Virus record (IMG/VR): IMGVR_UViG_3300021376_000028
Location: 1 to 64,000 of that record
Origin: a virus
DNA length: 64,000 nt
Reading direction: 5' to 3' (one strand)
Part shown: positions 15,221 through 33,504 of the stretch, piece by piece
How the letters are laid out: each line of letters begins with the position of its first letter
Numbering within the stretch: position 1 is the stretch's first letter
Position numbers and translations under genes: made by a program
Notes under the pieces: generated by a model
What the model was told of the DNA's origin: nothing
Seen by the model: only the letters and a program-made list of their open reading frames with translations
The model's database searches: none

Positions 15221-15296
15221 GCCGGATTAGCTCAGTTGGCAGAGCAACGCACTTGTAATGCGTAGGTCGCAGGTTCAACTCCTGCATCCGGCTCCA
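15221..15296 (+). tRNA. tRNA-Thr(UGU)
   Basis: Cloverleaf; anticodon arm ACGCA-ctTGTaa-TGCGT; GGTTCAA T-loop; encoded CCA. Confidence 0.95.
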
Positions 15297-15305
15297 CAGA
15301 TTTAT

Positions 15306-15539
15306 ATGACAGAATTACAATGGTCTTGGCTGCTTGCATGCATGGGTGTTTCTGGTATGTACTTTGTTGGCAAAAAACGATGGGAAGCATTTCTATGGTT
15401 AATTGTTATGGAATGTCTATGGATCATCTTTGCTTTACAAACGAAAACATATGGTTTTATCTTGGGATCATTGGCCTACATGGCTGTATATTCAAAAAAT
15501 TTAAGATTATGGAAACAAGATAAAAACAATCAGAAATAG
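15306..15539 (+). CDS. Small membrane protein (PnuC-like fragment)
   Basis: Three hydrophobic segments; WSWLL..G..G..KRW pattern; ATG right after the tRNA. Confidence 0.55.
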   Translation: MTELQWSWLLACMGVSGMYFVGKKRWEAFLWLIVMECLWIIFALQTKTYGFILGSLAYMAVYSKNLRLWKQDKNNQK

Positions 15540-15584
15540 ACTAATAGGTAGTTCCACAGACTGTTAATATGTGTTTGAACATAA

Positions 15585-15656
15585 CCGAGCGTAACTCAGT
15601 GGTAGAGTATCTCCTTTACACGGAGGCGGTCGTAGGTTCAAATCCTACCGTTCGGA
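15585..15656 (+). tRNA. tRNA-Val(UAC)
   Basis: CCGAGCG/CGTTCGG acceptor; TCTCC-ttTACac-GGAGG; GGTTCAAATCC. Confidence 0.92.
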
Positions 15657-15660
15657 CAAT

Positions 15661-15948
15661 ATGAAAAAATTATTTAATAATATCGTTAGTGCAATTAAAA
15701 CGATGATTTCATCAAACTACTGGACGGCGGCAAATAAGGTGGAGGCCTGGGGCTTTGCAACTAAAATAACGATCATCTTTCCAGGCCTTTTGTTTGGCAA
15801 GCAGTTTTGGTGGCTATATATCTTTGCAATAATTTCAAGTTTGGCTTTGATATGGTCCTCTACAGTAAAGACACTGCCTACGATTATTCTTTTTAATGTT
15901 TTATGGGTGATGTTGGGAACTGCATCAATTATTAAACATTTTATTTAA
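15661..15948 (+). CDS. Membrane protein
   Basis: Three hydrophobic segments. Confidence 0.6.
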   Translation: MKKLFNNIVSAIKTMISSNYWTAANKVEAWGFATKITIIFPGLLFGKQFWWLYIFAIISSLALIWSSTVKTLPTIILFNVLWVMLGTASIIKHFI

Positions 15949-15966
15949 ATACAGAAAGACAATACT

Positions 15967-16212
15967 ATGAAAAAGAAAATAAGTTATCTTGGCTGGAAAG
16001 CAGCCCAGAAATTCTCAGCAGAATGTTATTTATATAAGGTTAAATATCAGATGTCAGAATCTCATAACAAGCTCTTAAGAGAGGAATATGATCGCCTTCT
16101 TAACTGTCGTTATAAATTGATAACCGCAGAAGAAAAAATTAAATCTATGGAATCCCAAATTGATTCTTTAAAAGCTGAAATTCAAAGATTGCAACAGGTT
16201 GCGCAATATTAA
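15967..16212 (+). CDS. Hypothetical coiled-coil protein
   Basis: ORF track. Confidence 0.55.
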   Translation: MKKKISYLGWKAAQKFSAECYLYKVKYQMSESHNKLLREEYDRLLNCRYKLITAEEKIKSMESQIDSLKAEIQRLQQVAQY

Positions 16213-16217
16213 AACAA

Positions 16218-16292
16218 TCGGGGATGGTGTAGTTGGCAACACATCAGGTTTTGGTCCTGAGATTGAGGGTTCAAGTCCTTCTCCCCGAACCA
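16218..16292 (+). tRNA. tRNA-Gln(UUG)
   Basis: TCGGGGA/TCCCCGA acceptor; TCAGG-ttTTGgt-CCTGA; encoded CCA. Confidence 0.93.
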
Positions 16293-16313
16293 ATCTTGAT
16301 ATAAAATATTGAT

Positions 16314-16955
16314 ATGCCAGAATTAAATGCAAATATTCCGCCGATTGAATGTTATGTTCGGGGAAATTATTTAAGAAACCAAAAGGACTCTCATGACATA
16401 TATTTGCCATGCATGCTCTTCGGTGTCGCCTCCATCCAGGGCAGGAGCCCCTTATTTCATTTTCTAATGGAAGACGGGGGTGTTTGGTGGAGAATGCCAA
16501 TAAGTGCCTTCTGTGACCAGCCAGAAGTACCAGAGGTGGACATCCATGAACTGGTCCTATGGAACTCTTTTAGCCCCCATATCACCGTGACTGAATTTCA
16601 GGCAATGCGGAATATGAGAATGGAATATGTCTCAAGAAGTGGAAACTTTATAAAAGGAAAATATCTATTTACCCTGGATTGGCATGCTCCTGACGACAAC
16701 ACAACAAATCTCGGGTTTAGCACTAATCCCGGTCAGCATAAATGTGGTCATGTAATCATAAGGGATGATGGTAATTTTGCCATCCAGCCAAACAATCGGG
16801 TTCGGCTATATGATCCTTCATATACAACCAAGAAAACCAATTTAATTCATCGCCTTATTAATACTCAGCAATGGGATGTTGAAGATGCGGCCAAATGGGT
16901 AACATCAGATGATGACAGCTACCATTACGGCATTGTCACCGGAAATGAAGAATAA
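16314..16955 (+). CDS. Conserved phage protein of unknown function
   Basis: LNANIPPIECYVR..W.MPISAF..WNSFS..G.YLFTLDW..HKC.H..GNFAIQPNNR pattern; TAAAAT 6 nt before ATG. Confidence 0.7.
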   Translation: MPELNANIPPIECYVRGNYLRNQKDSHDIYLPCMLFGVASIQGRSPLFHFLMEDGGVWWRMPISAFCDQPEVPEVDIHELVLWNSFSPHITVTEFQAMRNMRMEYVSRSGNFIKGKYLFTLDWHAPDDNTTNLGFSTNPGQHKCGHVIIRDDGNFAIQPNNRVRLYDPSYTTKKTNLIHRLINTQQWDVEDAAKWVTSDDDSYHYGIVTGNEE

Positions 16956-17107
16956 GTTCGGTTAAAAGATAGTTCATAAATATATAAAACCACAACATAC
17001 ATTATTTTGTTTCAATGTCCGGTCGTGTTTATTTTCACATGCTATTATAATCCCGTTGCGAACGAAGACCAGCCGTGGCGCGGAAATGATACTATCCCCC
17101 AAAGCGC

Positions 17108-17518
17108 ATGAAGAGGAGATTAAAAATGCAATTATCATTGAAAACAATTAAATACATTTTTCCCCGAAGGGTTTACCATTACCTTTTAAAAAGAAGGATG
17201 TATTCAATTCTTTATAAGAATGGAGATTCTTCCATTGCTTTCTCTAATAAGATAAATATGTATAAGAATTATCTAGAAGAAGATAAGAAAGCCCCGCAGA
17301 AATATGAAGATATTGGTCTGCATTTTCTATCCCCGATTCCAAGACACGACCTTTCAAACTTTAATAAGTTGACGACGAGAGAAGACTTGAACAAATACGG
17401 CCATTCTCATACAAACTCAAAAATGCAAGGTTTGCCCGTCTATACAAAAATCTTTGGCAATCTTATGAAAAATCCTCCCCGCAAAAATGATCCAAAAGAC
17501 CCGCCCTCCATGGCGTGA
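17108..17518 (+). CDS. Hypothetical protein
   Basis: ORF track; GAGGAG suggests the start may be the second Met. Confidence 0.55.
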   Translation: MKRRLKMQLSLKTIKYIFPRRVYHYLLKRRMYSILYKNGDSSIAFSNKINMYKNYLEEDKKAPQKYEDIGLHFLSPIPRHDLSNFNKLTTREDLNKYGHSHTNSKMQGLPVYTKIFGNLMKNPPRKNDPKDPPSMA

Positions 17519-17638
17519 TGTGGTGTATGACATACACCAAAAAATTTTAATATTTTTGCAAAATTGAGTACATATCCGTGAAGTGTTACTTTATATATTA
17601 ATACTTACAACAAAGGGTCTGATTACCGAGTCAATCAG

Positions 17639-17738
17639 CTGGAGTGCATGTTTGTTTACAAACTTGTACTCCAGTCTGTTAGGGTGACCTAACATGGGAT
17701 TGAGTGCGTTTCTGTGCCCGTGTGCTATTGTAAGTGTG
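17639..17738 (+). promoter_or_regulatory. Cassette 1 module: inverted repeat + GTTAGG palindrome + extended -10 promoter
   Basis: CTGGAGTGCA..TGTACTCCAG; GTTAGG-gtga-CCTAAC; GAGTGCGTTT-14-TATTGT. Confidence 0.8.
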
Positions 17739-17777
17739 TCGGGGCAACCGCTCCGCACTACCGAAAGGACACACACG

Positions 17778-18137
17778 ATGGCTACGCCACGCCCATTCAA
17801 CGACGAGCAGCGAGAGCGGTTCGCAACACTATCAGCAGGCTTCATCGCCATCCTGCTGTGGACGCCCATTATCATGAGCCTCACCGCCACCGCGCAAGCG
17901 GGGGGCGATTTCTGGGACTTCTGGTGGGCTTTCATCCTGTCCGGTCTGTTCGGGATCGTCTTTGCCCTGTTCGGGTGGATGGCTTGCGACATCCGCATGG
18001 ACTACCGGCACGAGATGGCAGACCAGTACGAGAGAGATCGTGTCTGCTCCCAATGCCACAACGCATCGCTGGACCGAACATGGCGTCGCCAGCCCAAGAC
18101 CGGACTCCTGTTCAAGACAAAGATCAAGAACCGGTGA
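17778..18137 (+). CDS. Cassette 1 cargo: two-TM membrane protein with CxxC
   Basis: SD GAAAGGA; ATG17778 (MATPRPFNDEQ..); two hydrophobic helices; CSQC. Confidence 0.75.
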   Translation: MATPRPFNDEQRERFATLSAGFIAILLWTPIIMSLTATAQAGGDFWDFWWAFILSGLFGIVFALFGWMACDIRMDYRHEMADQYERDRVCSQCHNASLDRTWRRQPKTGLLFKTKIKNR

Positions 18138-18144
18138 CCAAATC

Positions 18145-18182
18145 TCCCCCCCTCGCCCGAACCCCCTCGGGCGAGGGGGGGA
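18145..18182 (+). terminator. GC hairpin ending cassette 1 (also at 18767, 19409, 19973, 20610, 21030, 21611)
   Basis: TCCCCCCCTCGCCCGA-accccc-TCGGGCGAGGGGGGGA right after the stop codon; no U-tract. Confidence 0.6.
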
Positions 18183-18243
18183 ACCCCCGCCGTTCTATTC
18201 AGACTGTCTAAGATATTGAATATGCAGTCTCTCTCTCCCCGTC

Positions 18244-18347
18244 GGTTGGTGTGCACGTTTGTTTACAAACTTAAGCGCCAATCTGTTAGGTATGCCTAAC
18301 GGGTCTCTTTGAGTGCGTTTCTGTGCCGGTGTGCTATTGTGAGTGTG
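18244..18347 (+). promoter_or_regulatory. Cassette 2 module
   Basis: Inverted repeat; GTTAGG-tatg-CCTAAC; GAGTGCGTTT; GTGCTATTGT. Confidence 0.8.
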
Positions 18348-18389
18348 TCGGGGAGAAACACAAGTACCCTCGGCAGGAAGGACAACACC

Positions 18390-18758
18390 ATGACCACGAA
18401 CCAGCCGACCGCCGATGCGGAGGCAATGGATGAGGGCGAGATCAAGCAAGCGTTCAGGGACGGGCGGGAAATCATCTCCGCACTCACGGACTGCATGACC
18501 AAGATCTGCTTCCACGATGGCGACCCGTACAACCAGCGCACCACGATGCTCTCCATTGCGGTGGGCAGGAACATCATCAACGAGATCCGCAGGACACACG
18601 AGATCCTCCACGATCTCGCAATGCTGATCGACGAGGACGACTACACTCTCTGGTCGCATGGCATCGCCGGGGAACTCCTCCGAGCCGGAAGGATCAGCCG
18701 AAAGGATTACTGGGACCTCTACTGCCAGGGTTGGCTCATCGACAACTGCAACTGCTGA
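18390..18758 (+). CDS. Cassette 2 cargo: hypothetical protein
   Basis: SD GGAAGGA; ATG18390 (MTTNQPTADAE..); GC-rich codons. Confidence 0.75.
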   Translation: MTTNQPTADAEAMDEGEIKQAFRDGREIISALTDCMTKICFHDGDPYNQRTTMLSIAVGRNIINEIRRTHEILHDLAMLIDEDDYTLWSHGIAGELLRAGRISRKDYWDLYCQGWLIDNCNC

Positions 18759-18866
18759 CAACAATCTCCCCCCCTCGCCCCCTCCCCCTCGGGCGAGGGG
18801 GGGAACCCCCACCGTTCTGACGGTGCTTCCTTATAGATTGAGTATACACAAGGATCACTTCACATC

Positions 18867-18970
18867 GGTTGGTGTGCAAGTTGGTTCACTGACTTAAACA
18901 CCAACCTTGTTAGGTATGCCTAACGGTCTCTTTGAGTGCGTTTCTATGGCGATGTGCTATTGTAAGAGTG
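18867..18970 (+). promoter_or_regulatory. Cassette 3 module
   Basis: GGTTGGTGT..ACACCAACC; GTTAGG-tatg-CCTAAC; TGTGCTATTGT. Confidence 0.8.
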
Positions 18971-19007
18971 TCGGGAGAACCCCAAGTACCTCGACGGAAA
19001 GGAAATC

Positions 19008-19403
19008 ATGGGCGTCGTCATTGAGCCGGACTACCAGCGTCAACGCAGGGACAAGGTGATCGTGCCTTGCGAGTGCGGTGCCTCCGTGGAGGTCAACTAC
19101 GAAGACTGGTATGCAGACCAGTCGGCATGGTGCCAGGCAGGACAGCACTACTTCTACATCAGCGAGGACGAGTGGTACATCAATCCGCATGGAGTGGAGT
19201 GGCATGAGGTCCACATCACGATGGGGCGCTGGGACTGGATTCACCGGGCAATGGGGCTCGGACCCGGCAGTTGGGTTGGGTTCATGCACCCCGACATCCT
19301 CGGCGCTCTCCTGCCCCGTGCCAGCAGCGACCCGTTCTACGATGCTCTGATGAGTGTCGTGGACACCGCCCAGACTCTGAACGTCATGGTCAAGTGGTCC
19401 TGA
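19008..19403 (+). CDS. Cassette 3 cargo: Trp-rich protein with CxC..CxxxxH (possible Zn ribbon)
   Basis: SD GAAAGGA; ORF track. Confidence 0.75.
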   Translation: MGVVIEPDYQRQRRDKVIVPCECGASVEVNYEDWYADQSAWCQAGQHYFYISEDEWYINPHGVEWHEVHITMGRWDWIHRAMGLGPGSWVGFMHPDILGALLPRASSDPFYDALMSVVDTAQTLNVMVKWS

Positions 19404-19498
19404 AAATCTCCCCCCGCCCGAACCCCCTCGGGCGGGGGGAACCCCCACCGATCTATACATACTGTCTGTGATATTTAATACGCAGTCTCTCTCTATCA

Positions 19499-19601
19499 GC
19501 TGGCGTGCAAGTTGGTTCACTGACTTAAACGCCAGCGTATTAGGTATGCCTAACTGGTCTCTTTGAGTGCGTTTTCGTGCTCGTGTGCTATTGTAAGTCT
19601 G
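19499..19601 (+). promoter_or_regulatory. Cassette 4 module
   Basis: GCTGGCGT..ACGCCAGC; ATTAGG-tatg-CCTAAC; TGTGCTATTGT. Confidence 0.8.
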
Positions 19602-19635
19602 TCGGGGGGACGGTCCCCACGACGGAAAGGAAAGC

Positions 19636-19947
19636 ATGGGCAAGCGCTACAACTCAACGGCGGTCATGGAGGTGTTGGTGGTGATCACCAGTAGGCTCTA
19701 CTTCACCGGCACACCATTCTCGGAGGAGGACTTCGACGAGTGGCAGTCCCGCCTGCTCGGTCTCGTCCGCGAGATGAGCGACCAACTGGACAAGGAGGAT
19801 GTCGCGGACGCCATCAATGCCGAGATCGTCCTCAAGAACGGAATGCGGTCCTACGAGGACTTGCTGCACGAGTTCAGCGAGCTCGTCAGGACTGGCATTC
19901 CCACCTGGAGAGTCGGGCTGCGTCAGATGTCTCGCTCCCCCAACTGA
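19636..19947 (+). CDS. Cassette 4 cargo: acidic helical hypothetical protein
   Basis: SD GAAAGGA; ORF track. Confidence 0.75.
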   Translation: MGKRYNSTAVMEVLVVITSRLYFTGTPFSEEDFDEWQSRLLGLVREMSDQLDKEDVADAINAEIVLKNGMRSYEDLLHEFSELVRTGIPTWRVGLRQMSRSPN

Positions 19948-20056
19948 CCGAATGAGCCATCACTCTCCCCCGCCCCCCTCGCCCTCGGGCGAGGGGGGAA
20001 CCCCCACCGGTTCAGGCAGACATCCATGTTGATTTAATATACGTTTTCTCCCTGTA

Positions 20057-20158
20057 AGCTGGTGTGCAAGTTGGTTTACAAACTGAAACACCAGTTCGTT
20101 AGGGCAACCTAACATGAAATTGAGTGCGTTTCCACGGTCTTATGCTATTGTAAGTGTG
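20057..20158 (+). promoter_or_regulatory. Cassette 5 module
   Basis: CTGGTGT..ACACCAG; GTTAGG-gcaa-CCTAAC; TATGCTATTGT. Confidence 0.8.
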
Positions 20159-20192
20159 TCGGAGGGACGGTCTCTCCGACAGGAAGGAAACC

Positions 20193-20375
20193 ATGCCAAT
20201 ACAATTGACCTGTCCGTACTGCGACAGGACATTCACATACGACACCGTGACATTCATCGGTGCGAGCAAGAAGATGTCCACGCACAAGGCTCGTTGCCCG
20301 AAGAAACGATACCTCGGCGGTGACTTGGAGATCGGAACAGCCGAGGATGCCCGTGAACTGCTGGAGGGGGAGTGA
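20193..20375 (+). CDS. Cassette 5 cargo A: small C2HC-type zinc-finger-like protein
   Basis: SD GGAAGGA; ATG20193 MPIQLTCPYCDRTF..HKARC. Confidence 0.7.
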   Translation: MPIQLTCPYCDRTFTYDTVTFIGASKKMSTHKARCPKKRYLGGDLEIGTAEDARELLEGE

Positions 20376-20605
20376 TGACCTACGAAGACTTTGAGAGGCT
20401 CGTCCAGTCATCGTTCCCCAATGACGGCAACATCCGGTACGGACAGCATTGGTTCAACACCCTGTATTCGGTGAGGCCCGGGGTGGCTAACCTCATCAGG
20501 GGGACACTCCACGATCCTTTCCACCGAGAGAAGGTTTCAGAGCAGACGCAAGGCTATGCCCGTGCGCTCTGGAGCGACCTTCGTGCTCACGACACGGTGA
20601 ACTGA
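20372..20605 (+). CDS. Cassette 5 cargo B: hypothetical protein (RYGQ..FN.L..DPF family)
   Basis: GTGA coupling with cargo A; GGAGG upstream. Confidence 0.7.
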   Translation: MMTYEDFERLVQSSFPNDGNIRYGQHWFNTLYSVRPGVANLIRGTLHDPFHREKVSEQTQGYARALWSDLRAHDTVN

Positions 20606-20698
20606 ATCCTCCCCCCGCCCTCGGGCGGGGGGAACCCCCATCCGTTCAGACAGACATCTATACTTATTTAATATATATATCTCTCTGTCTACACGCAG

Positions 20699-20799
20699 CT
20701 GGCGTGCGGGTGAGTTTACAAACTTAAACGCCAGTCCGTTAGGTTAGCCTAACAGTCTCTTTGAGTGCGTTTCTGTGCTCGTGTGCTATTGTAAAGATG
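20699..20799 (+). promoter_or_regulatory. Cassette 6 module
   Basis: CTGGCGT..ACGCCAG; GTTAGG-ttag-CCTAAC; TGTGCTATTGT. Confidence 0.8.
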
Positions 20800-20830
20800 T
20801 CGGGGAGACTCCCCGACGGAAAGGAAAGCA

Positions 20831-21007
20831 ATGAGTAACAGACTGAGAAACGTACTCGCTAGGGTGTATTGGTACCTAACGACATTCAGGGCGCTGAAAG
20901 GATCGCACCAACCGTGTCGCCACTGCTACTTCCGTTGGCTGAACGAGAAGCGCAACCGTTGGTTGTGGTTGTGGTGCGACAACGACTGCAACTGGGGCAA
21001 CGAGTAG
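20831..21007 (+). CDS. Cassette 6 cargo: 58-aa Trp/Cys/Arg-rich peptide (not in ORF track)
   Basis: SD GAAAGGA; MSNRLRNVLARVYWYLTTFRALKGSHQPCRHCYFRWLNEKRNRWLWLWCDNDCNWGNE*; stop just before the GC hairpin. Confidence 0.75.
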   Translation: MSNRLRNVLARVYWYLTTFRALKGSHQPCRHCYFRWLNEKRNRWLWLWCDNDCNWGNE

Positions 21008-21126
21008 CCCCAACACTCGGACCAAGATCTCCCCCCCTCGCCCCCCTCTCCCTCGGGCGAGGGGGGGAACCCCGACCGGTCTAGGCAGTCTGTCTATAAT
21101 GTTTAATATACAGCCTTCCTTCATCA

Positions 21127-21228
21127 GCTGGCGTGCGAGTTAGTTCACTGACTTAAACGCCAGCCTGTTAGGGGCACCTAACGGTCTCTTTGAGTGCGTT
21201 TCTGTGCCGGTGTGCTATTGTAAGTGTG
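21127..21228 (+). promoter_or_regulatory. Cassette 7 module
   Basis: GCTGGCGT..ACGCCAGC; GTTAGG-ggca-CCTAAC; TGTGCTATTGT. Confidence 0.8.
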
Positions 21229-21261
21229 TCGGCGGGACGGTCCCGCCGACAGAAAGGCACC

Positions 21262-21597
21262 ATGAACAAGGTGAAAATCAACGGGCGATGGGTGAGCGCA
21301 AGCAACCCTCCCACAATAAGCGAAGTGTGGCACCTAGTGCTACCGGCGAAGCACGATGCGATCCGGACACTTACCAACCTCATCGCCGGACTGGAGACCC
21401 TGGTGGTGGCGTTGGAAGCCCTGCTCGCTGAACACCCATACGAGATCCAGGACCCCAGGACAGCCTTGCTATGGGAGAAGCACCACGCCCGGATCACTCG
21501 GGAAATCGGCAAGAACCAACGAGAGCGGAACGCCGCCAAGTTGCGCTACCGGCAGATGGTCCAAGTGCTGGAGTGGTACGACAACAGCGTGTCCTGA
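21262..21597 (+). CDS. Cassette 7 cargo: helical hypothetical protein
   Basis: SD GAAAGG; ATG21262 (MNKVKINGRW..). Confidence 0.75.
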   Translation: MNKVKINGRWVSASNPPTISEVWHLVLPAKHDAIRTLTNLIAGLETLVVALEALLAEHPYEIQDPRTALLWEKHHARITREIGKNQRERNAAKLRYRQMVQVLEWYDNSVS

Positions 21598-21790
21598 ACA
21601 CGCCCCCTGCCCCCCCCTCGCCTTCGGGCGAGGGGGGGAACCCCCACCGATCCAGTCACATCAACACATTAAATTGAATATACGGTTTCTCTCACTTCAT
21701 CAGCTGGCGTGCAGGTCGGCTTACTGACTTAAACGCCAACTCATACAGACAGGCCAGACTCTTATATTTAATATACACTTTCTCCCTGTA

Positions 21791-21892
21791 AGCTGGTGTG
21801 TACGAGCTTTAGCGAAGTTAAACACCAGCTTTGTTAGGTTCACCTAATAAAAAAAAGAGTGCGTTTTTGTGACGGTGTGCTATTGTAAGGGC
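21791..21892 (+). promoter_or_regulatory. Cassette 8 module (leaderless)
   Basis: AGCTGGTGT..ACACCAGCT; GTTAGG-ttca-CCTAAT; TATTGT 6 nt before ATG. Confidence 0.8.
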
Positions 21893-22276
21893 ATGGCAAA
21901 CAAGCCGGAGCCGACCGCTAAGGCGGAGGACAACAACAACAACCACAGCAAGCCGAGGAAGATCAACCTCTCCGAACTGAAAGGCACGGTGTCCCCACGG
22001 GGGCGCAAGCCCTACACGGACGAGGCGTTGGTCCAGTACCTCACGGAGATGGTGCAGGACGGAGAGGGCTTCGGACTGGACGCTCCCTACGAGGTCACCG
22101 ACGACATGCGCAAGGGCACCCCACGGGGCGTGAAGGCGCAGAACCGCGAGCGTGCCAAGTGGCGCAACCGCATCGTGTCGGTGTGGACCTCCACGCTCGG
22201 CAGGGACAAGGGCGAGATCACCGTCGGGTGGACCTCGGAGCACGAGGTCACCGTCTCCCTCAGGAACAAGGCGTAG
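21893..22276 (+). CDS. Cassette 8 cargo: putative DNA-binding protein (RGRK motif), paralog of cassette 9 cargo
   Basis: KINLSELKG..RGRKPY..YLTEMV..EGFG..AKWRNRIVS shared with 22539..22886. Confidence 0.75.
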   Translation: MANKPEPTAKAEDNNNNHSKPRKINLSELKGTVSPRGRKPYTDEALVQYLTEMVQDGEGFGLDAPYEVTDDMRKGTPRGVKAQNRERAKWRNRIVSVWTSTLGRDKGEITVGWTSEHEVTVSLRNKA

Positions 22277-22286
22277 AAAGGCGCTG

Positions 22287-22333
22287 AAAAACCGCAAGGT
22301 TTTTACCCTCCCCTTCGGGGGAGGTTTTTTTTT
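22287..22333 (+). terminator. Intrinsic terminator (tandem hairpins)
   Basis: AAAAACC-gcaa-GGTTTTT, then CCTCCCC-ttcg-GGGGAGG plus T9. Confidence 0.85.
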
Positions 22334-22344
22334 GTCCAAAATCG

Positions 22345-22380
22345 TTGGCGTTCAAGATGCTGAAGCATCTTGAACGCCAA
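22345..22380. repeat. 36-bp palindrome, copy 1
   Basis: TTGGCGTTCAAGATGCT-ga-AGCATCTTGAACGCCAA; identical copy at 22954-22989. Confidence 0.95.
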
Positions 22381-22436
22381 TCCGTACAAGGCAACGCTCT
22401 CTTCCCTTGAATACATTTTCCTAACTTACTTGAGAA

Positions 22437-22538
22437 GCTGGTGTTCAATAGCTTTAGCTAAATTGAACACCAGCGATGTTAGGCTGACCTAATAAGAAAA
22501 TGAGTGCGTTTTCGTGCCGGTGTGCTATTGTAGGAGTC
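22437..22538 (+). promoter_or_regulatory. Cassette 9 module (leaderless)
   Basis: GCTGGTGTTCAAT..ATTGAACACCAGC; GTTAGG-ctga-CCTAAT; TATTGT 7 nt before ATG. Confidence 0.8.
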
Positions 22539-22886
22539 ATGGCAACCAATGCCGGTGACCGCAATAGCGGAACCAACCCAAAGAAAATCAACCTGTCCGA
22601 CCTGAAAGGTAAGACTTCCCAACGGGGGCGCAAGCGGTACGCAAACGCCACCCTCACGGAATACCTGAGGGAAATGGTGAGCACACGGGAAGGCTTCGGT
22701 GTTCCCGAACTCTTGACCGTGACTCCCAAGACAACGGAGAAGCAAATCCAGACCCAAAAAGCAAAGTGGCGCAACCGCATTGTGTCATTGTTTGAGGAAC
22801 TGAACTTCCCGGGACACCGCATCAGTATTTCGTGGACGGACGCTCACGAAATGGTCGTGGAAATGGTTGAGACCACCGAAGGCTGA
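22539..22886 (+). CDS. Cassette 9 cargo: putative DNA-binding protein, paralog of cassette 8 cargo
   Basis: KINLSDLKG..RGRKRY..YLREMV..EGFG..AKWRNRIVS. Confidence 0.75.
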   Translation: MATNAGDRNSGTNPKKINLSDLKGKTSQRGRKRYANATLTEYLREMVSTREGFGVPELLTVTPKTTEKQIQTQKAKWRNRIVSLFEELNFPGHRISISWTDAHEMVVEMVETTEG

Positions 22887-22897
22887 GGAACCTTCAT

Positions 22898-22942
22898 AAA
22901 AAACGAAAGTTTTTTGACTCCGCTTCGGCGGAGTTTTTTTTT
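22898..22942 (+). terminator. Intrinsic terminator (tandem hairpins)
   Basis: AAAAAAC-gaaa-GTTTTTT, then ACTCCGC-ttcg-GCGGAGT plus T run. Confidence 0.85.
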
Positions 22943-22953
22943 GTCCAAAATCG

Positions 22954-22989
22954 TTGGCGTTCAAGATGCTGAAGCATCTTGAACGCCAA
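22954..22989. repeat. 36-bp palindrome, copy 2
   Basis: Identical to 22345-22380, including upstream T-run + GTCCAAAATCG. Confidence 0.95.
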
Positions 22990-23879
22990 TACTTTTATCC
23001 TTATATTCATACTAATTGAGTATACTTACTTGGCAAGGTTAGACCCTCCTTATATATTCTCTTTTTTTAATTGGTGGTCGTTTAAGAAATGCATTTCTTA
23101 AACACACCAATTAAATTAAATTTATTCTTTCCATTATGTTTAGTATTTTCTAATCGCATAGTCATCGCGTTGTCCTTTCAATTGCATTTCCTAATTGATT
23201 TGCGGGTGCCAATGGCTCACCAGTTCCCTTGGTAAATTCCCTCCTAATAGCCTGGGTGAATAGGTCACTCAAACCCCCCCTCAATTTACTCAACAAGAAT
23301 AAAATTCATGGATCTGGATATAGATAGGGTTAGGAGCATAGGAATAGTCTCTTCATATAGCCGCCTTCCCCAAATTCATATTAAAAATCGGGTTAAAAGC
23401 CCTCTATTCAACCTATATAAGAGGTATAAGAATAAACTTAATGGAAAATAGGCAAAATTTTTTTGTTTTTAATTAAAAGTTGACTATTTTAATCAACTTT
23501 TATTAAGTTTTAGAATAAAATTAACCGCTTTTTGGCACAAAAAAAAGCCTTAAAAATAAGATTTCTCTTACTTCTAAGGCTTTCTTTGCTTAATTACAAT
23601 GGATTCGGGGGTACACCATAGTAATTAATAAATATTGACGCAAATTGTCGTGCGTGTCGTCTCTTTATAATACTTTTGAAGCATATATCTTTTAAATATT
23701 TGCTTCTTGTTTTAGGGCTTCCTAAGACTCCTGGAGATCTTCCTCTATATCTCTAAAGAACTCTTCATTAGCCCAATCCCATTTTTCTTTTTCCCGCTCA
23801 TACCAAACAACATAACAACCCCAGCACATTGGGTTTGCCATATCTGATATATCACAGCATAAATCTTGCTTATTATCTA

Positions 23880-29346: not shown

Positions 29347-29634
29347 TTATTCAGTTGTGATTATTCCTGTCAGTTCGCTTAGCTTTTCAGTCCAATACCT
29401 ACGAAATCCGTCAGGTACCGATTTGCTATAAAAACTTTGAGATGTAATATTGAAAAATGCGGTTAGCAATTTATTATAATTTATTTCATTCCATTCATAT
29501 TGCTGAATCATTTCTACTGTTTGTTTAACCTGCTTCTCTCCATTTAGAAAAACACGATAGTCGTCGCTTTGATGATATTGCCAGTCTGTTTTGTTAATTA
29601 TTATTGCTAACTCTATAATTTCTTCATTATTCAT
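29347..29634 (-). CDS. Hypothetical protein (DWQY..SDD.RV family)
   Basis: Start ATG29634 after AAGGAG; the upstream extension overlaps the tRNA-like RNA. Confidence 0.6.
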   Translation of the reverse strand: MNNEEIIELAIIINKTDWQYHQSDDYRVFLNGEKQVKQTVEMIQQYEWNEINYNKLLTAFFNITSQSFYSKSVPDGFRRYWTEKLSELTGIITTE

Positions 29635-29651
29635 TTGCTCTCCTTGTTTAG

Positions 29652-29765
29652 TGGGAATGGTGAGAGTCGAACTCACTATACAGTCTTTAGACTAACAGTT
29701 ATCAACTTACCCTAGACAACAAAAGAAGACTGATAGTCGTACTATATACTCCGGCATACATTCCC
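29652..29765 (-). ncRNA. tRNA-like RNA with expanded anticodon arm
   Basis: Acceptor GGGAATG/CATTCCC+A; T-arm GTGAG-TTCGACT-CTCAC; CAGTCTT/AAGACTG stem enclosing ~38 nt; non-canonical D region. Confidence 0.6.
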
Positions 29766-29867
29766 GTGGTGCATATTAATTAGACTTTGCTCATACATAT
29801 GCAAGATATGAGATAACCTCAACCGGTAAGGTTTATTAATTAACAGGCTCTAATCAAACCTGTATCA

Positions 29868-30569
29868 TTATGGCGTTTCAATAGAAGGTATTTGGAAAGG
29901 ATTATACTTTCTATATTCAGCCATAATAACATGTCGATATTTAGTGAAAAACTTGTTATAGTATTTATCAGTGACCGGTCCAAAATAACCGTCAACACCT
30001 ACGCCTATAATTTTCTGTATTTGATAAACGTATTTGTTTTTATCTCCAAGTTTATATTCTCTAAATAAGATCTTTGTAGGAAATTTCTTAAAAAGAACTG
30101 GGTTCCCTACATTCTTTTTACATCCCCAGCCACCAAAACCAACAGCATCTCTAAAGAAAGGTTTTTTAGTTAACTTGTCTTTAAGAGTTATAAATTCATT
30201 TTTAGTTTGATATCCCTGAGTTGATATCCTGTTTGCAACAGTAATTTGCTCTTCAACCGTTGCTAATTCTGGCTTTTTAGCGAACTCTAATCCGCCAAAG
30301 TTAATCCATGTCTGAGTATATATGCCCAATCCACCGGACCATTTTCCTTTGTCTTTCCAGTCACCACCTGTTTCGCATTGGGCCATCCTATGCCAATACA
30401 AATTCAATGCTCTGGGTTTTCCCCGCTCACTAAAAGCAGGGACGTTATTATTAATTTTAATTTCCTGTGTATTTGTTTCAGCCTCAACAGGAACTGGCTG
30501 ATAATAAAAATAGCCGTTCGTGAGAACGGTTAAAAGTAAAAATCTTAATATAAGATGTTTAGTTTTCAT
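29868..30569 (-). CDS. Secreted Rpf-like lytic transglycosylase with peptidoglycan-binding tail
   Basis: Signal peptide; WHRMAQCETGGDW..GGLG..TW..FGG..AT.EEQI.VA Rpf core; C-terminal VDGYFGPVT. Confidence 0.8.
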   Translation of the reverse strand: MKTKHLILRFLLLTVLTNGYFYYQPVPVEAETNTQEIKINNNVPAFSERGKPRALNLYWHRMAQCETGGDWKDKGKWSGGLGIYTQTWINFGGLEFAKKPELATVEEQITVANRISTQGYQTKNEFITLKDKLTKKPFFRDAVGFGGWGCKKNVGNPVLFKKFPTKILFREYKLGDKNKYVYQIQKIIGVGVDGYFGPVTDKYYNKFFTKYRHVIMAEYRKYNPFQIPSIETP

Positions 30570-30761
30570 TTTTCGCTCCTTAAAACTATTGGTTTTACGG
30601 AACATTAATATAGCCTACAAACTACATAACATTTCCGTATTAGCATACTGCTAAGGTTGCGAAACAAGATCACTGCACATTAATAATGCTACTTGTTCCA
30701 CAAGATTACTCTTATAGGCATCACCTCCAAATACATAATTATAATTATATCAGATCTTAAC

Positions 30762-30838
30762 TGGTACCGCATATGGGAATTGAACCCATCAATGGATGTT
30801 TATAAGACATCTGTGTTCAACCAGCTCACCCATGCGGC
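30762..30838 (-). tRNA. tRNA-Ile(UAU)
   Basis: GCCGCAT/ATGCGGT acceptor; GATGT-ctTATaa-ACATC; GGTTCAATTCC; CCA. Confidence 0.88.
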
Positions 30839-30845
30839 TAGTTTA

Positions 30846-31208
30846 TTAGAACTCTAAATCTTCCTCTGGAAGACTAGCAATCAGATCACTAGCATATTCA
30901 GGTCTATTGCCAAGCATCTTCGCCAAGTTGATTCTTTTTTCGCTGTACTTTGAAACATACTCATCTATTGCTTCTCCCATCGGAACACCTTTTTCTTGTG
31001 CAATTTCTTGCATCATTAAAAACATATGAATCATACTTCCATAAACCAAACCTGGCAGGAAAACCGGATTTTTAGCGTCATCTTCTAGGGATGAGATAAG
31101 GAAAGTTATCATCTCTTGACTGTTTTCGGAACAGTGAGCATTGAAAAGTTGCATTATATAATCTGTAAAAAGAACATCTTGATACTCTTTGAATGGCCGG
31201 ATTTCCAT
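30846..31208 (-). CDS. Hypothetical protein, probably leaderless
   Basis: TATAAT 6 nt before ATG. Confidence 0.65.
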   Translation of the reverse strand: MEIRPFKEYQDVLFTDYIMQLFNAHCSENSQEMITFLISSLEDDAKNPVFLPGLVYGSMIHMFLMMQEIAQEKGVPMGEAIDEYVSKYSEKRINLAKMLGNRPEYASDLIASLPEEDLEF

Positions 31209-31437
31209 GATCCAATTATATCACCCGTTCAGGTATAATAAAAGTAAACCTATCGCAGATAATACAGTTATCAAGAATAATTCTCTCATTTTCACTCACC
31301 TCTTTGGGCAAGCAAGTGAGAGGCGATAATCGTTATTATTGTAATTGCTCCATAACCCATTATAAATTTGATCATTATGATTAACCTCACGCCCGTTGAT
31401 TTATTTTTATTCTTAGCGCATTTTGAATACGCAATAG

Positions 31438-31509
31438 TAGGCCTATAGGGAATCGAACCCTACTCCACAGATTAAAAGTCTGTTGCTTCACCATCAAAGC
31501 TTTAGGCCT
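31438..31509 (-). tRNA. tRNA-Lys(UUU)
   Basis: AGGCCTA/TAGGCCT acceptor; ACAGA-ctTTTaa-TCTGT; GGTTCGATTCC. Confidence 0.92.
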
Positions 31510-31524
31510 TTAGACACGCATTCC

Positions 31525-31798
31525 CCTACAAAAAGATCTAACTGGACAATATATACTACTTGTAAGAACCGTCGTATATATTGTCGGATTAATATAATTT
31601 CTTATATTACGGGTTCACAGTCATCTACCGTATAAGCCAAAATCTTATACACAAGTCAAAGCTACAGGCTATTAGCTAGTTGTGTATTGCAGTTAGTTTT
31701 TACAAATAGTGTTTCTATGGACTGAAAGCAGTCCGTTCTGGGATCTCCCCAGACACTCATGCTATTTGTGAGATAACTAACAACTTAGACTTTCCCCT
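31525..31798 (-). ncRNA. Candidate ~270-nt structured ncRNA upstream of tRNA-Lys
   Basis: No ORF in track; multiple nested helices (see findings). Confidence 0.5.
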
Positions 31799-31800
31799 AA

Positions 31801-31998
31801 CTACTCTTCTCGCCAGATTGGATTTTGCAAGATAATAGGTTTATTTTGAACAGGTACAGGTTCAGAATTATTGGAAAATAAACAAGGTTCAGACTCCATC
31901 ATTAGTTTAATTAAAAGAGCTGGTTGAATATTTGTACCTTTAAGTTCTTCAGCCAGTTCTTTCTCATAAGCCTCTATATCGTGAGTGTCTCTATTCAT
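31801..31998 (-). CDS. Hypothetical protein
   Basis: SD GAGGA. Confidence 0.5.
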   Translation of the reverse strand: MNRDTHDIEAYEKELAEELKGTNIQPALLIKLMMESEPCLFSNNSEPVPVQNKPIILQNPIWREE

Positions 31999-32032
31999 TT
32001 AGTGTTCCTCATAATTGTGAAAATTTGCATAA

Positions 32033-32410
32033 CTAATCATGAATAATTTTCCATCTGTCAACGCCTGGAATGAGACCTAATTTAGATCCATCATCCCAGG
32101 TGACAAATACTGTACCAGTATCATCTATATAATCTATTGTACCAAGATCACCATACTGAAGTTTGGTATATTCATCATTGGTGCTAATAAGTTGAATTCT
32201 TTTACTAAGACAATGAAAAGATTGTTTTTCAATTTCAAATGGGTCCATTGTTACTCTTGCATCATTAAGAATCATTTGATCAGTTAATTCAGAGTATTTA
32301 AGAATCTGCAGACCACCATAGTTCTCATCCATGAATTGCTTGCAATTTTCAAGCGATCCAGAATAAAGAACAAACTGATCTCCTATGTCAACTACGTAAT
32401 AAATGCTCAT
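32033..32410 (-). CDS. DUF4314-like (SH3-like) domain protein
   Basis: RIQLI..D.Y..L..GD.GTI.YIDD.GT..V.WD.GS.LGLIPG.D.W. Confidence 0.75.
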   Translation of the reverse strand: MSIYYVVDIGDQFVLYSGSLENCKQFMDENYGGLQILKYSELTDQMILNDARVTMDPFEIEKQSFHCLSKRIQLISTNDEYTKLQYGDLGTIDYIDDTGTVFVTWDDGSKLGLIPGVDRWKIIHD

Positions 32411-32604
32411 TTCGTGCTAGCTTTATCTGAATTTGTAATCATTCCATTTAAAGAAACTTGCCAAGCCTTTTTGGTTTGTGGTTTTGTTTGCTTTAAATAT
32501 TCCTGTTCAGTAGCGGACATTCCATATAAGATTGCTCCTGTGAACGCAATAAGAAAAATTACCGCTCCAAGGCAAAACAAAGTTGTTTCAGACACAATCA
32601 CCAA
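32407..32604 (-). CDS. Small membrane protein
   Basis: One TM helix; coupled overlaps. Confidence 0.5.
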   Translation of the reverse strand: MVIVSETTLFCLGAVIFLIAFTGAILYGMSATEQEYLKQTKPQTKKAWQVSLNGMITNSDKASTK

Positions 32605-32789
32605 TCTCTATCTTTAAGCGCTATCATAAAAGAGCCAAGAGCAAGAATAGAAGGTACCCAAATACCAACATATATTCCATTGAGCTTGTCTAATTCAGTA
32701 TCACCGCCAAAGAAAAGCGAGATGCTAAGAACAAGACCAATAAAGGCTGATAGGATTGTTGTTGATTTAAGAATTTTTAATGGTTTCAT
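32598..32789 (-). CDS. Small membrane protein (GIYVGIWVPSILALG family)
   Basis: Two TM helices. Confidence 0.6.
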   Translation of the reverse strand: MKPLKILKSTTILSAFIGLVLSISLFFGGDTELDKLNGIYVGIWVPSILALGSFMIALKDRDW

Positions 32790-32837
32790 AGTTGTATCTT
32801 TTCTGTTATTGATTTTATAGGACAGGACACGGAAATA

Positions 32838-33401
32838 TTACTCAGCAGTTTCGTCAATTTCCCCCTCTAAATAGATTTTTAAATTTTCAATTTCTTGTTG
32901 AAGAAGTGTATCAACCGGAGATGGTTTTCCAAACTCATGAGTGTACTCATCAACAAAATTAACTTCAACATAACCGTTCTGATAAACCATATCTTTGTCA
33001 GTAAAGACATATCTCCAGTAAGTGCCATCTTCACCTTGGTAAGTAATGTAAGAGCCAGGTTCAATGTACCCCGAAAAACAAGTCAAAAAATAATCTTCGT
33101 TACCGATTTTGTCAGAATATATAAGATCAACAAGATTGCCATCTATATCAAGACGATACTCAAATCCAAGCGCAGTAAGGATTGCAAACATATCGCTACA
33201 AGTTTCTGGGTAGTTATAATCCATCCAAGAGAACCAAACATTTGGATTATAGCGAGTAGTATACTCTTCAGTTTTAGGATGCCTACCACCTCGCTTTAAA
33301 TCATCATGATCGTTCAGTTCACACATTCTTTCGTAGACAGAATTAAAATGCTTTTTATCCAAAAAGATTTTAGTTTCAGCTGTGTTGACATAGTAACCCA
33401 T
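32838..33401 (-). CDS. Hypothetical phage protein (MGY..GEDG..WRY family)
   Basis: SD GAAAGG. Confidence 0.65.
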   Translation of the reverse strand: MGYYVNTAETKIFLDKKHFNSVYERMCELNDHDDLKRGGRHPKTEEYTTRYNPNVWFSWMDYNYPETCSDMFAILTALGFEYRLDIDGNLVDLIYSDKIGNEDYFLTCFSGYIEPGSYITYQGEDGTYWRYVFTDKDMVYQNGYVEVNFVDEYTHEFGKPSPVDTLLQQEIENLKIYLEGEIDETAE

Positions 33402-33431
33402 ATTTTTACCTTTCTGTTGTTACTTATGTTG

Positions 33432-33504
33432 TGGGTATAATGGGATTCGAACCCATACTTTAAAGATTTTAAGTCTTTTGCCTCTGCCGTTGGGCTACAT
33501 ACCC
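33432..33504 (-). tRNA. tRNA-Leu(UAA), short variable loop
   Basis: GGGTATG/TATACCC acceptor; AAAGA-ctTAAaa-TCTTT; GGTTCGAATCC. Confidence 0.88.

What the first reader, a model, noticed from the sequence alone, without database searches (positions are those of the whole stretch)
15221..33504. All six canonical tRNAs read A-ending codons, suggesting a two-phase translation strategy
Seen: anticodons are Thr UGU, Val UAC, Gln UUG, Ile UAU, Lys UUU and Leu UAA, which decode ACA, GUA, CAA, AUA, AAA and UUA. Established: these codons are scarce in high-GC actinobacteria, and UUA is bldA-limited in Streptomyces. Inference: the GC-coded cassette cargo is translated at once by host tRNAs, while the AT-coded bulk of the genome depends on phage tRNAs. 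This could act as a codon-based temporal switch.
Basis: partly seen in the sequence, partly recalled or inferred. Interest (0 to 1): 0.7.

Follow-up and report, generated by a model that had tools for sequence, protein, structure and literature searches.

The report
Phage tRNAs for scarce A-ending codons
An AT-rich lake-water phage of actinobacteria carries six tRNAs that all read A-ending codons, a pattern long known from phage T4 and marine cyanophages that most likely tops up tRNAs the host supplies poorly; nothing in the sequence shows that it works as a timing switch.

Summary
ARAGORN and Rfam find exactly six tRNAs in the whole 85.7-kb phage record, all with T at position 34: Thr-TGT, Val-TAC, Gln-TTG, Ile-TAT, Lys-TTT, Leu-TAA. 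Five related lake phages carry 14 of 15 such tRNAs.

The host is an actinobacterium (two WhiB genes, an Rpf-like lysin, kinship to Streptomyces phages). Its GC content could not be determined.

The GC-rich cassette genes do use the six codons four times less than other genes. T-ending codons are depleted just as much. The cargo looks like ordinary genes of a 58% GC actinobacterium.

Every functional module of the phage uses the six codons alike, including replication, head and tail. The major capsid gene of 73 relatives strongly avoids ATA, TTA, AAA, CAA and AGA, the codons whose tRNAs recur in this phage family. So these codons are poorly served by the host, and the tRNAs most likely compensate. 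There is no early/late partition.

Tested here, T4's eight tRNAs all read A-ending codons. The scan has met all-U34 phage tRNA sets before on other DNA.

Verdict: a new member of a known kind. The temporal switch is unsupported.

The parts
15221..15296 (+). tRNA-Thr(UGU), reads ACA (and probably ACU/ACG by wobble)
   Evidence: ARAGORN; Rfam 73.6 bits
15585..15657 (+). tRNA-Val(UAC), reads GUA
   Evidence: 67.2 bits
16218..16292 (+). tRNA-Gln(UUG), reads CAA
   Evidence: 60.1 bits; also present at the syntenic place in relative G001
30762..30838 (-). tRNA-Ile(UAU), reads AUA without lysidine; CCA end encoded
   Evidence: 47 bits; conserved in G001, G003 and G005, with 9 of 19 pairs showing compensatory changes
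31437..31509 (-). tRNA-Lys(UUU), reads AAA
   Evidence: 59.1 bits; also in G001 and G003
33431..33504 (-). tRNA-Leu(UAA), reads UUA; 74 nt, long variable arm deleted
   Evidence: 65 bits; alignment with the 85-nt homologues of G001/G005 and with the Coruscant tRNAs
17639..22990 (+). Array of nine promoter/terminator-bounded cassettes carrying ten small ORFs; about 58% GC in a phage of about 36% GC
   Evidence: composition; sequence; repeats; nine copies of the promoter scaffold against 0 expected; cargo GC3 0.79, non-coding scaffold GC 0.515 against 0.337 for intergenic DNA elsewhere in the phage
1981..3012 (-). Major capsid gene, used as an internal probe of which codons the host translates well
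   Evidence: PHROG 1623; about 50% identity to capsid proteins of Streptomyces phages; GC3 0.42; 79 per 1000 of the six codons; codon preferences over 73 relatives
38225..38569 (-). WhiB-family gene (host marker); a second copy lies at 66325-66507(-) of the record, outside the window
   Evidence: PF02467, 67.4 and 50.2 bits, above the cut-off; among the 14 control genomes only Corynebacterium matches
11205..17518 (+). AT-rich plus-strand gene block (ThyX, proteasome-like gene, small membrane ORFs) that holds three of the tRNAs and runs into the cassette array
   Evidence: ORFs; Pfam; six-codon use 158 per 1000, the same as the rest of the genome

Best explanation
The six genes are working elongator tRNAs. 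An AT-rich (36-38% GC) virulent-type actinophage keeps them because its genes are full of A-ending codons that the host's tRNA pool serves poorly. T-ending codons need no help: they share the host's G34 tRNAs with C-ending codons. A-ending codons need their own U34 tRNA, so an AT-drifted phage runs short only of U34 tRNAs, and only those are retained. The need is sharpest in split codon boxes (AUA, UUA, AAA, CAA, AGA), where actinobacteria rely mainly on C34 or G34 isoacceptors. The phage tRNAs raise the supply for the bulk of phage genes throughout infection. Shown: the genes, their anticodons, their conservation, the codon counts and the capsid gene's avoidance. Inferred: that the host pool is limiting, and that the tRNAs are expressed and charged. 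The GC-rich cassettes are a separate feature of a conserved variable slot. Their independence from these tRNAs follows from their base composition.
For: (1) Six of six tRNAs here and 14 of 15 in five relatives have T34. The recurrent ones are Arg-UCU, Ile-UAU, Leu-UAA, Lys-UUU and Gln-UUG.
(2) The capsid gene of 73 relatives avoids exactly these codons. Share within the amino acid, capsid gene against other genes: ATA 0.00 vs 0.19, TTA 0.05 vs 0.26, AAA 0.14 vs 0.61, AGA 0.23 vs 0.50, CAA 0.32 vs 0.66. It prefers CCA, TCA and GCA and is neutral for GAA, for which no relative carries a tRNA. Recurrent tRNAs against avoidance: Mann-Whitney p = 0.014.
(3) The tRNA-cognate codons are the A-ending codons that differ most between other genes and GC-rich cargo, in two independent arrays: 3.98-fold and 3.02-fold, against 2.10-fold and 1.13-fold for the other A-ending codons.
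(4) The cultured relative Coruscant has 42 tRNAs, of which 38% have T34, so the small lake-phage sets are a selective subset.
(5) Precedent tested here: T4's eight tRNAs are Arg-TCT, Ile(CAT, reads AUA), Thr-TGT, Ser-TGA, Pro-TGG, Gly-TCC, Leu-TAA and Gln-TTG.
(7) Compensatory changes show that the tRNAs are kept functional.
Against: The host is not identified, so a codon-usage gap between phage and host is inferred only from proxies (capsid gene, cargo). If the host is a low-GC acI-type actinobacterium (41-48% GC), the gap would be small. Thr-UGU and Val-UAC serve codons that the capsid gene does not avoid (ACA 0.41 vs 0.44, GTA 0.20 vs 0.23), so two of the six are not explained by this probe. 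GAA, one of the two most used A-ending codons, has no phage tRNA. This fits established knowledge, since bacteria read both Glu codons mainly with tRNA-Glu(UUC), but it was not tested. The record is 82% complete, so further tRNAs may be missing. No expression or charging data exist.
Confidence: 0.7

Rival explanations
1. One reading: a two-phase, codon-based temporal programme. The GC-coded cassettes are immediate-early genes translated by host tRNAs alone. All AT-coded genes wait until the phage tRNAs accumulate, so tRNA supply gates the switch.
For: Each cassette has its own sigma-70-type promoter with an extended -10 and its own terminator, and two have leaderless starts. This would suit transcription by unmodified host RNA polymerase. 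The cargo has almost no TTA (0), GTA (1), ATA (2) or AAA (7) among 1012 codons. A GC-elevated slot lies next to tRNA genes in all four long genomes examined. Three tRNAs lie 1.3 kb upstream on the same strand.
Against: There are no timing data of any kind. Replication genes, which must be made early, use the six codons as much as structural genes: 133 per 1000 against 144 (head) and 171 (tail). The AT-rich plus-strand block that contains the tRNAs uses them at 158 per 1000. The capsid gene, the most abundant late product, avoids them. Cargo depletion equals that of T-ending codons (4.2-fold) and equals native genes of a 58.5% GC actinobacterium. The non-coding scaffold is GC-shifted too (0.515 vs 0.337), so the signal is compositional and not codon-specific. 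Members of one cargo family range from GC3 0.92 down to 0.49, so high GC3 is not required. The cassette promoter scaffold is not found upstream of the tRNAs.
Confidence: 0.12
2. The tRNAs replace host tRNAs that are lost during infection. The loss would come either from the phage degrading host DNA and shutting down host tRNA synthesis ('all-destructive' model) or from host anticodon nucleases that cut U34 tRNAs such as tRNA-Lys(UUU). Phage copies would resist or outnumber the cleaved ones.
For: Both mechanisms are documented for other phages (Yang 2021 and van den Berg 2023, as summarised in PMC12482277). Lys-UUU, Gln-UUG and Leu-UAA belong to the modified-U34 class that known anticodon nucleases target; this rests on my own knowledge and was not tested. 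The arm-less tRNA-Leu(UAA) and the tRNA-like element at 29652-29765 show unusual tRNA engineering in this phage.
Against: The capsid gene avoids these codons, the opposite of late-gene adaptation to a phage-only pool. No host sequence was available to compare anticodon loops, and no nuclease is known for this host.
Confidence: 0.1
3. The set is a decaying remnant of a large ancestral tRNA cluster like the roughly 42 tRNAs of Stanwilliamsviridae. The U34 bias reflects only the AT mutation pressure of the phage on anticodons, without benefit.
For: Cultured relatives carry about 42 tRNAs. tRNA content varies from 1 to 6 among close relatives. A degenerate tRNA-like element sits where relatives have tRNA-Arg.
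Against: The same few anticodons recur in different genomes. Stems evolve by compensatory change while anticodon loops stay invariant. The retained set matches the codons the capsid gene avoids (p = 0.014). All of this indicates selection.
Confidence: 0.06

Closest known systems
Phage T4 tRNA cluster (NC_000866, 71.2-72.5 kb)
   Same: An AT-rich virulent phage whose entire tRNA set reads A-ending codons. Tested here: seven of eight have T34 and the eighth is the AUA-reading tRNA-Ile. It shares Arg-UCU, Ile(AUA), Thr-UGU, Leu-UAA and Gln-UUG with this phage family. The cluster lies in a variable region of small ORFs and stable RNAs.
   Different: T4 reads AUA with a CAU (lysidine) tRNA, whereas this family uses UAU. 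T4 has U34 tRNAs for four-codon boxes (Ser, Pro, Gly), which this family lacks. The host is a proteobacterium. T4 has no GC-rich cassette array.
Marine cyanomyovirus tRNA sets (Syn9, S-RSM4, S-PM2; Limor-Waisberg et al. 2011, PMC3152331)
   Same: [quoted passage not shown] Their core set Leu-TAA, Thr-TGT, Arg-TCT, Val-TAC, Asn-GTT overlaps almost completely with the tRNAs seen in this phage family.
   Different: Different hosts and phage lineage. In the cyanophage case host genomes are known and translation efficiency was computed. Here the host is unknown and a capsid-gene probe was used instead.
Early-host / late-phage tRNA pool models (vibriophage 2.275.O, Yang et al. 2021; Shigella phage Sf14, PMC12482277)
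   Different: Those phages carry 18-26 or more tRNAs that can nearly stand alone, and their late genes are adapted to the phage pool. Here there are six tRNAs, modules do not differ, and the main late gene avoids the cognate codons.
Stanwilliamsviridae (large Streptomyces phages such as Coruscant, NootNoot, Bmoc)
   Same: Closest cultured relatives: capsid protein about 50% identical, DnaE-type polymerase about 38%. By my own recollection, not measured here, they are much more AT-rich than their host. They carry tRNA-Ile(UAU) and arm-less tRNA-Leu(UAA).
   Different: About 130 kb with about 42 tRNAs covering most amino acids and 38% T34. They are soil phages of 72% GC hosts (host GC from my own knowledge). 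The lake phages are about 86-106 kb in the records examined, 38% GC, and keep only 1-6 tRNAs.
Promoter-stem-loop gene cassettes of T4-type phages (PeSL; recalled from memory, not checked here)
   Same: Tandem small genes, each with its own early-type promoter and a stem-loop or terminator, in hyperplastic regions.
   Different: The arrays here are 15-20 GC points richer than the phage, and the scaffold differs between close relatives. Membership was not tested.

Membership tests
Codon-compensating phage tRNA set (Bailly-Bechet 2007 / Limor-Waisberg 2011 type) | Canonical, conserved elongator tRNA genes in a phage genome | tested here: met
   ARAGORN plus Rfam, 47-73.6 bits; compensatory changes across relatives
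Codon-compensating phage tRNA set (Bailly-Bechet 2007 / Limor-Waisberg 2011 type) | Anticodons biased to T at the wobble position in an AT-rich phage | tested here: met
   6 of 6 here and 14 of 15 in relatives; phage GC 38%, GC3 0.30
Codon-compensating phage tRNA set (Bailly-Bechet 2007 / Limor-Waisberg 2011 type) | Cognate codons used more by the phage than by the host | tested here: inconclusive
   The host genome was not identified. Two proxies agree: the capsid gene avoids ATA, TTA, AAA, CAA and AGA, and the cognate codons show the largest gap between other genes and cargo.
Codon-compensating phage tRNA set (Bailly-Bechet 2007 / Limor-Waisberg 2011 type) | The tRNAs are expressed, charged and improve phage translation | not testable with these tools
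Temporal tRNA-pool switch (Yang 2021 type) | Early genes fit the host pool and late genes fit the phage tRNA pool | tested here: not met
   Six-codon use per 1000: replication 133, head 144, tail 171, plus-strand block 158. The capsid gene, at 79 per 1000, avoids the cognate codons. Timing classes were inferred from function only.
Temporal tRNA-pool switch (Yang 2021 type) | Loss of host tRNAs or host genome during infection | not testable with these tools
   Needs an infected culture
Temporal tRNA-pool switch (Yang 2021 type) | A phage tRNA set broad enough to carry late translation | tested here: not met
   Six tRNAs for six amino acids in an 82% complete record; five in the complete relative G001
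Actinobacteriophage (host phylum Actinomycetota) | WhiB-family gene, taken in the literature as restricted to Actinomycetota and their phages (PMC10202952, PMC6802176) | tested here: met
   Two PF02467 matches above the cut-off; among the control genomes only Corynebacterium matches. Also an Rpf-like PF06737 lysin and a ThyX nearest to Actinomycetota.
bldA-type control by a limiting tRNA-Leu(UAA) in a high-GC host | Host of very high GC in which UUA is rare and its tRNA is developmentally limited | tested here: inconclusive
   Lake-water origin. Host GC is unknown. Capsid-gene preferences (CTT, GTT, GGT, CGT, CCA, GCA) do not look like adaptation to a 70% GC host. TTA is avoided in the capsid gene (0.05).

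The most novel reading that the evidence does not exclude
In this family of freshwater actinophages, a conserved genomic slot holds host-promoter-driven, GC-rich, partly leaderless mini-genes built so that they can be expressed before any phage function exists. The neighbouring U34 tRNA genes then license translation of the AT-coded remainder. In this reading, base composition itself separates an immediate-early class from everything else, through translation or through escape from AT-targeted silencing of the Lsr2 type.
Probability: 0.12. Interest if true: 0.6.

Novelty: new member of a known kind. Interest (0 to 1): 0.3.

Why it matters
As a tRNA finding it is ordinary. It adds an uncultured freshwater actinophage family to the list of AT-rich phages (T4, cyanomyoviruses) whose tRNAs all read A-ending codons. 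Two things are useful beyond that. First, the capsid gene of many relatives can stand in for an unknown host: the codons it avoids are the ones whose tRNAs the phages carry. This gives a host-free test of the compensation hypothesis that can be applied to metagenomic phages. Second, the same phages keep a GC-elevated cassette slot beside the tRNA genes. Whether that composition is selected or imported remains open, and it could be tested once a host is in culture.

Tried and rejected
**Host identification (all inconclusive)**
- The phage WhiB as a single query against GTDB genome contigs found nothing.
- A ThyX alignment found only homologues of about 50% identity, in 58-70% GC Actinomycetota MAGs. 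It also hit one probably mis-binned 38% GC contig.
- WhiB against 401 sampled Actinomycetota genomes gave 34-51% identity among the matches listed, with no discrimination and with taxonomy withheld. That sample includes unpublished genomes (G130, G236 and others).
- A rhodopsin search to pick out freshwater lineages found only genomes of 53-75% GC. No acI-like low-GC genome was in the sample.
- The one low-GC genome reached (G030, 42% GC) lacks WhiB, so it is not a suitable proxy.
- The ESM Atlas gave phylum-level taxa only.

**Origin of the cassettes**
- The array DNA has no match in cultured phages.
- Cargo 3 is an orphan gene.
- The promoter scaffold and the terminator are absent from IMG/VR apart from chance hits.
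- The cargo 9/10 family has about 40 cluster representatives. Of two distant members tried, one found only G002 in IMG/VR and the other found nothing. Within the phage records held, only cargo 9/10 found homologues, in G002.
- The broad family alignment was too divergent for a locus search.

**Other checks that led nowhere**
- A -10-like TGGCTATTGT upstream of tRNA-Thr is at chance level, so shared promoters between tRNAs and cassettes were rejected.
- There is no Lsr2 gene in the phage.
- Relaxed ARAGORN settings add only spurious calls.

Full report
**1. What the window is**

The window is the first 64 kb of an 85,677-bp linear IMG/VR virus record, 82% complete by CheckV. It encodes these phage functions:
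- portal, prohead protease and major capsid protein;
- a DnaE-type polymerase, primase, DnaB-type helicase and RecA;
- a class II ribonucleotide reductase and ThyX;
- several glycosyltransferases and a DNA methyltransferase.

Overall GC is 38%, and about 36% outside one island.

The closest cultured phages are the large Streptomyces phages of the Stanwilliamsviridae. Their capsid protein is about 50% identical and their polymerase about 38%. At least 24 lake-water metagenome runs hold the sequence, and several of them may be its source. IMG/VR holds more than 200 related contigs, with 81-90% capsid identity among the 80 best that were kept. They include a complete 105.7-kb genome, G001.

**2. 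The observation**

ARAGORN and Rfam agree on six tRNA genes at the stated coordinates, and there are no others in the whole record. All six have T34: Thr-TGT, Val-TAC, Gln-TTG, Ile-TAT, Lys-TTT and Leu-TAA.

As a baseline, the cultured relative Coruscant has 42 tRNAs, 16 of them with T34. Six random draws from that pool are all T34 with probability 0.0015.

The bias is a property of the family. Five long relatives carry 15 tRNAs, and 14 have T34: Arg-TCT x5, Ile-TAT x3, Leu-TAA x3, Lys-TTT x2 and Gln-TTG x1. The exception is one Asn-GTT.

The genes are maintained by selection. In tRNA-Ile(UAU), 9 of 19 base pairs keep pairing through double changes while the anticodon loop is invariant. The acceptor stem of tRNA-Leu(UAA) also co-varies.

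**3. The host**

Several features point to an actinobacterial host:
- Two WhiB-family genes score above the Pfam cut-off; among the 14 control genomes the model matches only Corynebacterium.
- There is an Rpf-like transglycosylase and a proteasome-like gene.
- The nearest cellular ThyX homologues are in Actinomycetota.
- Two cassette genes have leaderless starts.
- The phage is kin to Streptomyces phages.

The literature treats whiB as the marker of freshwater actinophages (PMC6802176, PMC10202952).

Lake actinobacteria range from acI (a cultured Planktophila host is 46.5% GC and its phages 44.8%; PMC10202952) to the GC-richer Luna and acIV lineages (my recollection). None of my searches reached an acI genome or gave a discriminating match.

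I put the odds at roughly even between a host below 50% GC and one of 50-60%.

**4. Codon counts**

In 118 heuristic ORFs outside the island, the six cognate codons make up 153 per 1000 codons. In the ten cassette ORFs they make up 38.5 per 1000 (odds ratio 0.22, p = 5e-31).

The depletion is not specific, however:
- T-ending codons fall 4.2-fold, as much as the six codons (4.0-fold).
- Cargo GC1/GC2/GC3 is 0.55/0.43/0.79.
- The non-coding scaffold of the array is also GC-shifted, 0.515 against 0.337 for other intergenic DNA.
- The cargo's per-codon frequencies are nearly those of native genes from a 58.5% GC rhodopsin-bearing actinobacterium. There the six codons are 37.4 per 1000, with AAA 6.1, ATA 1.8 and TTA 1.3. 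In the cargo they are 6.9, 2.0 and 0.

The cargo therefore looks like ordinary 58-60% GC actinobacterial-type DNA, not like genes purged of particular codons.

**5. No early/late partition**

All functional modules use the six codons alike:

| Module | Six codons per 1000 |
|---|---|
| Replication | 133 |
| Head | 144 |
| Tail | 171 |
| Terminase/glycosyltransferase block | 167 |
| AT-rich plus-strand block holding three of the tRNAs | 158 |

If AT-coded genes had to wait for phage tRNAs, the replication genes would wait as well.

**6. The capsid gene as a host-free probe**

The capsid gene is the most expressed late gene. Among the modules and longer genes outside the array it uses the six codons least, at 79 per 1000, with GC3 of 0.42. 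A few short ORFs (66-82 codons) are as low or lower. Over 73 relatives its choices are codon-specific and not simply GC-driven:

| Codon | Share in capsid gene | Share in other genes |
|---|---|---|
| ATA | 0.00 | 0.19 |
| TTA | 0.05 | 0.26 |
| AAA | 0.14 | 0.61 |
| AGA | 0.23 | 0.50 |
| CAA | 0.32 | 0.66 |

The capsid gene also prefers CCA (0.70), GCA (0.53), TCA (0.42), GGT, CGT, CTT and GTT, and it is neutral for GAA, ACA and GTA.

The A-ending codons it avoids are those whose tRNAs recur in the family (Mann-Whitney p = 0.014). This is direct evidence that the host serves these split-box codons poorly, whatever its GC.

It is also evidence that the main late protein is coded so that it does not depend on the phage tRNAs. 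That is the opposite of what a late-genes-use-phage-tRNAs switch predicts.

In two independent arrays (G000 and G003) the tRNA-cognate codons show the largest contrast between cargo and other genes among A-ending codons: 3.98-fold and 3.02-fold, against 2.10-fold and 1.13-fold.

**7. Mechanism**

The simplest account is supply-side compensation.
- AT mutation pressure fills weakly expressed phage genes with T- and A-ending codons.
- T-ending codons are read by the host G34 tRNAs that serve the C-ending codons.
- A-ending codons need U34 tRNAs.
- In split boxes, actinobacteria rely mainly on C34/G34 isoacceptors and on a minor tRNA-Ile2. This is established knowledge, not tested here.

So the only tRNAs worth carrying are U34 ones, and chiefly Arg-UCU, Ile-UAU, Leu-UAA, Lys-UUU and Gln-UUG.

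Thr-UGU and Val-UAC occur only in this genome. The capsid probe does not explain them, although both belong to the cyanophage core set (PMC3152331).

**8. Comparison with what is known**

- T4, tested here, carries Arg-TCT, Ile(CAT, annotated as tRNA-Ile), Thr-TGT, Ser-TGA, Pro-TGG, Gly-TCC, Leu-TAA and Gln-TTG. All eight read A-ending codons.
- Limor-Waisberg et al. describe cyanomyovirus tRNA pools as dominated by thymine-starting anticodons that offset the gap to GC-richer hosts. They name the same core anticodons.
- The early-host-pool, late-phage-pool idea is published for a vibriophage and discussed for Shigella phage Sf14.
- The scan itself has met all-U34 phage tRNA sets repeatedly on other DNA, with the same conclusion.

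The finding is therefore a new member of a known kind.

**9. The cassette slot**

This part overlaps other first-stage notes on the same stretch. Nine promoter scaffolds (GAGTGCGTTT-N10-RTGCTATTGT) occur only in the array. The slot is conserved downstream of ThyX and tRNA-Gln, but its content is not:

| Genome | Position | GC |
|---|---|---|
| G000 | 17.7-22.9 kb | 58% |
| G001 | 81.5-88 kb | 43-57% |
| G002 | 54.4-58.3 kb | 47-50% |
| G003 | 1-8.6 kb | 50-60%, with a different, TCTAACGTTAGA-based scaffold |

One cargo family (cargo 9/10) also occurs in G002. Its GC3 runs 0.92, 0.68, 0.59, 0.53, 0.49 across members. It has about 40 cluster representatives in 1.84 billion proteins.

A slot that stays GC-elevated inside an AT-rich phage needs either continuing import from a GC-rich pool or selection. 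I could not tell which.

**10. Limits**

- Gene calls are heuristic.
- Timing classes are inferred from function only.
- The host is unknown.
- No RNA data were available.
- The record is incomplete.

Noticed in passing
window 33431-33504 (-); also L085 2726-2799 (G003) and Coruscant MT711976 (L182 5873-5947 and 14310-14384): The tRNA-Leu(UAA) is only 74 nt. It is clearly homologous to the 85-nt class II tRNA-Leu(UAA) of relatives G001 and G005, but the long variable arm is cleanly deleted. Arm-less Leu(UAA) and Leu(UAG) also occur in the cultured Streptomyces phage Coruscant. A14, A15, G18, U48 and A73 are invariant, and they include the main bacterial LeuRS identity elements (A73, A15-U48, G18). 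A review (PMC9976931) states that tRNA-Leu keeps the long arm everywhere except in animal mitochondria.
   Followed up: partly
window 29652-29765 (-): A 114-nt tRNA-like element with a 7-bp acceptor stem, a canonical T arm and a long hairpin in the middle. It sits where relatives have tRNA-Arg(UCU), in the gene order Leu-Lys-Ile-Arg. ARAGORN and Rfam do not call it at default settings, and blastn finds no copy in relatives. Its decoding role, if any, is unknown.
   Followed up: partly
L129 1-8600 (relative G003); G001 81.5-88 kb (L122 1500-8000); G002 54.4-58.3 kb: The GC-elevated cassette slot is conserved in position in all four long genomes, but its scaffold and cargo differ. G003 has at least 12 units built on TCTAACGTTAGA palindromes and GC-rich terminators, with cargo GC3 of 0.65.
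   Followed up: partly
window 21893-22276 and 22539-22886 (+); G002 54383-55911 (-): Cargo 9 and cargo 10 are leaderless paralogues of a small phage-restricted family (motifs K-x-N-L, R-G-R, K-W/Y-R-N-R) with about 40 cluster representatives. GC3 ranges from 0.92 to 0.49 among five members. This fits amelioration in one direction or the other.
   Followed up: partly
window 1981-3012 (-) and 73 homologues in L001-L080: The capsid gene shows strong, codon-specific bias (AAG 0.86, CGT 0.52, GGT 0.66, CCA 0.70, ATA 0.00). It can serve as a host-free readout of the host's preferred codons for uncultured phages.
   Followed up: yes
window 14383-14994 (+), 29868-30605 (-), 38225-38569 (-): The phage encodes a proteasome-subunit-like protein, an Rpf-like transglycosylase and two WhiB regulators. 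All are actinobacterial hallmarks, here in a 38% GC phage.
   Followed up: no
window 15258-15539 and 15661-15948 (+): Small ORFs with hydrophobic stretches that suggest membrane proteins are interleaved with the three plus-strand tRNA genes. The first overlaps the 3' end of tRNA-Thr.
   Followed up: no
L112 (DAISHL010000546.1, 1.6 kb): A 38% GC contig binned into a 'Bacteroidota' MAG encodes a ThyX 62% identical to the phage's. It is probably a mis-binned phage fragment.
   Followed up: no
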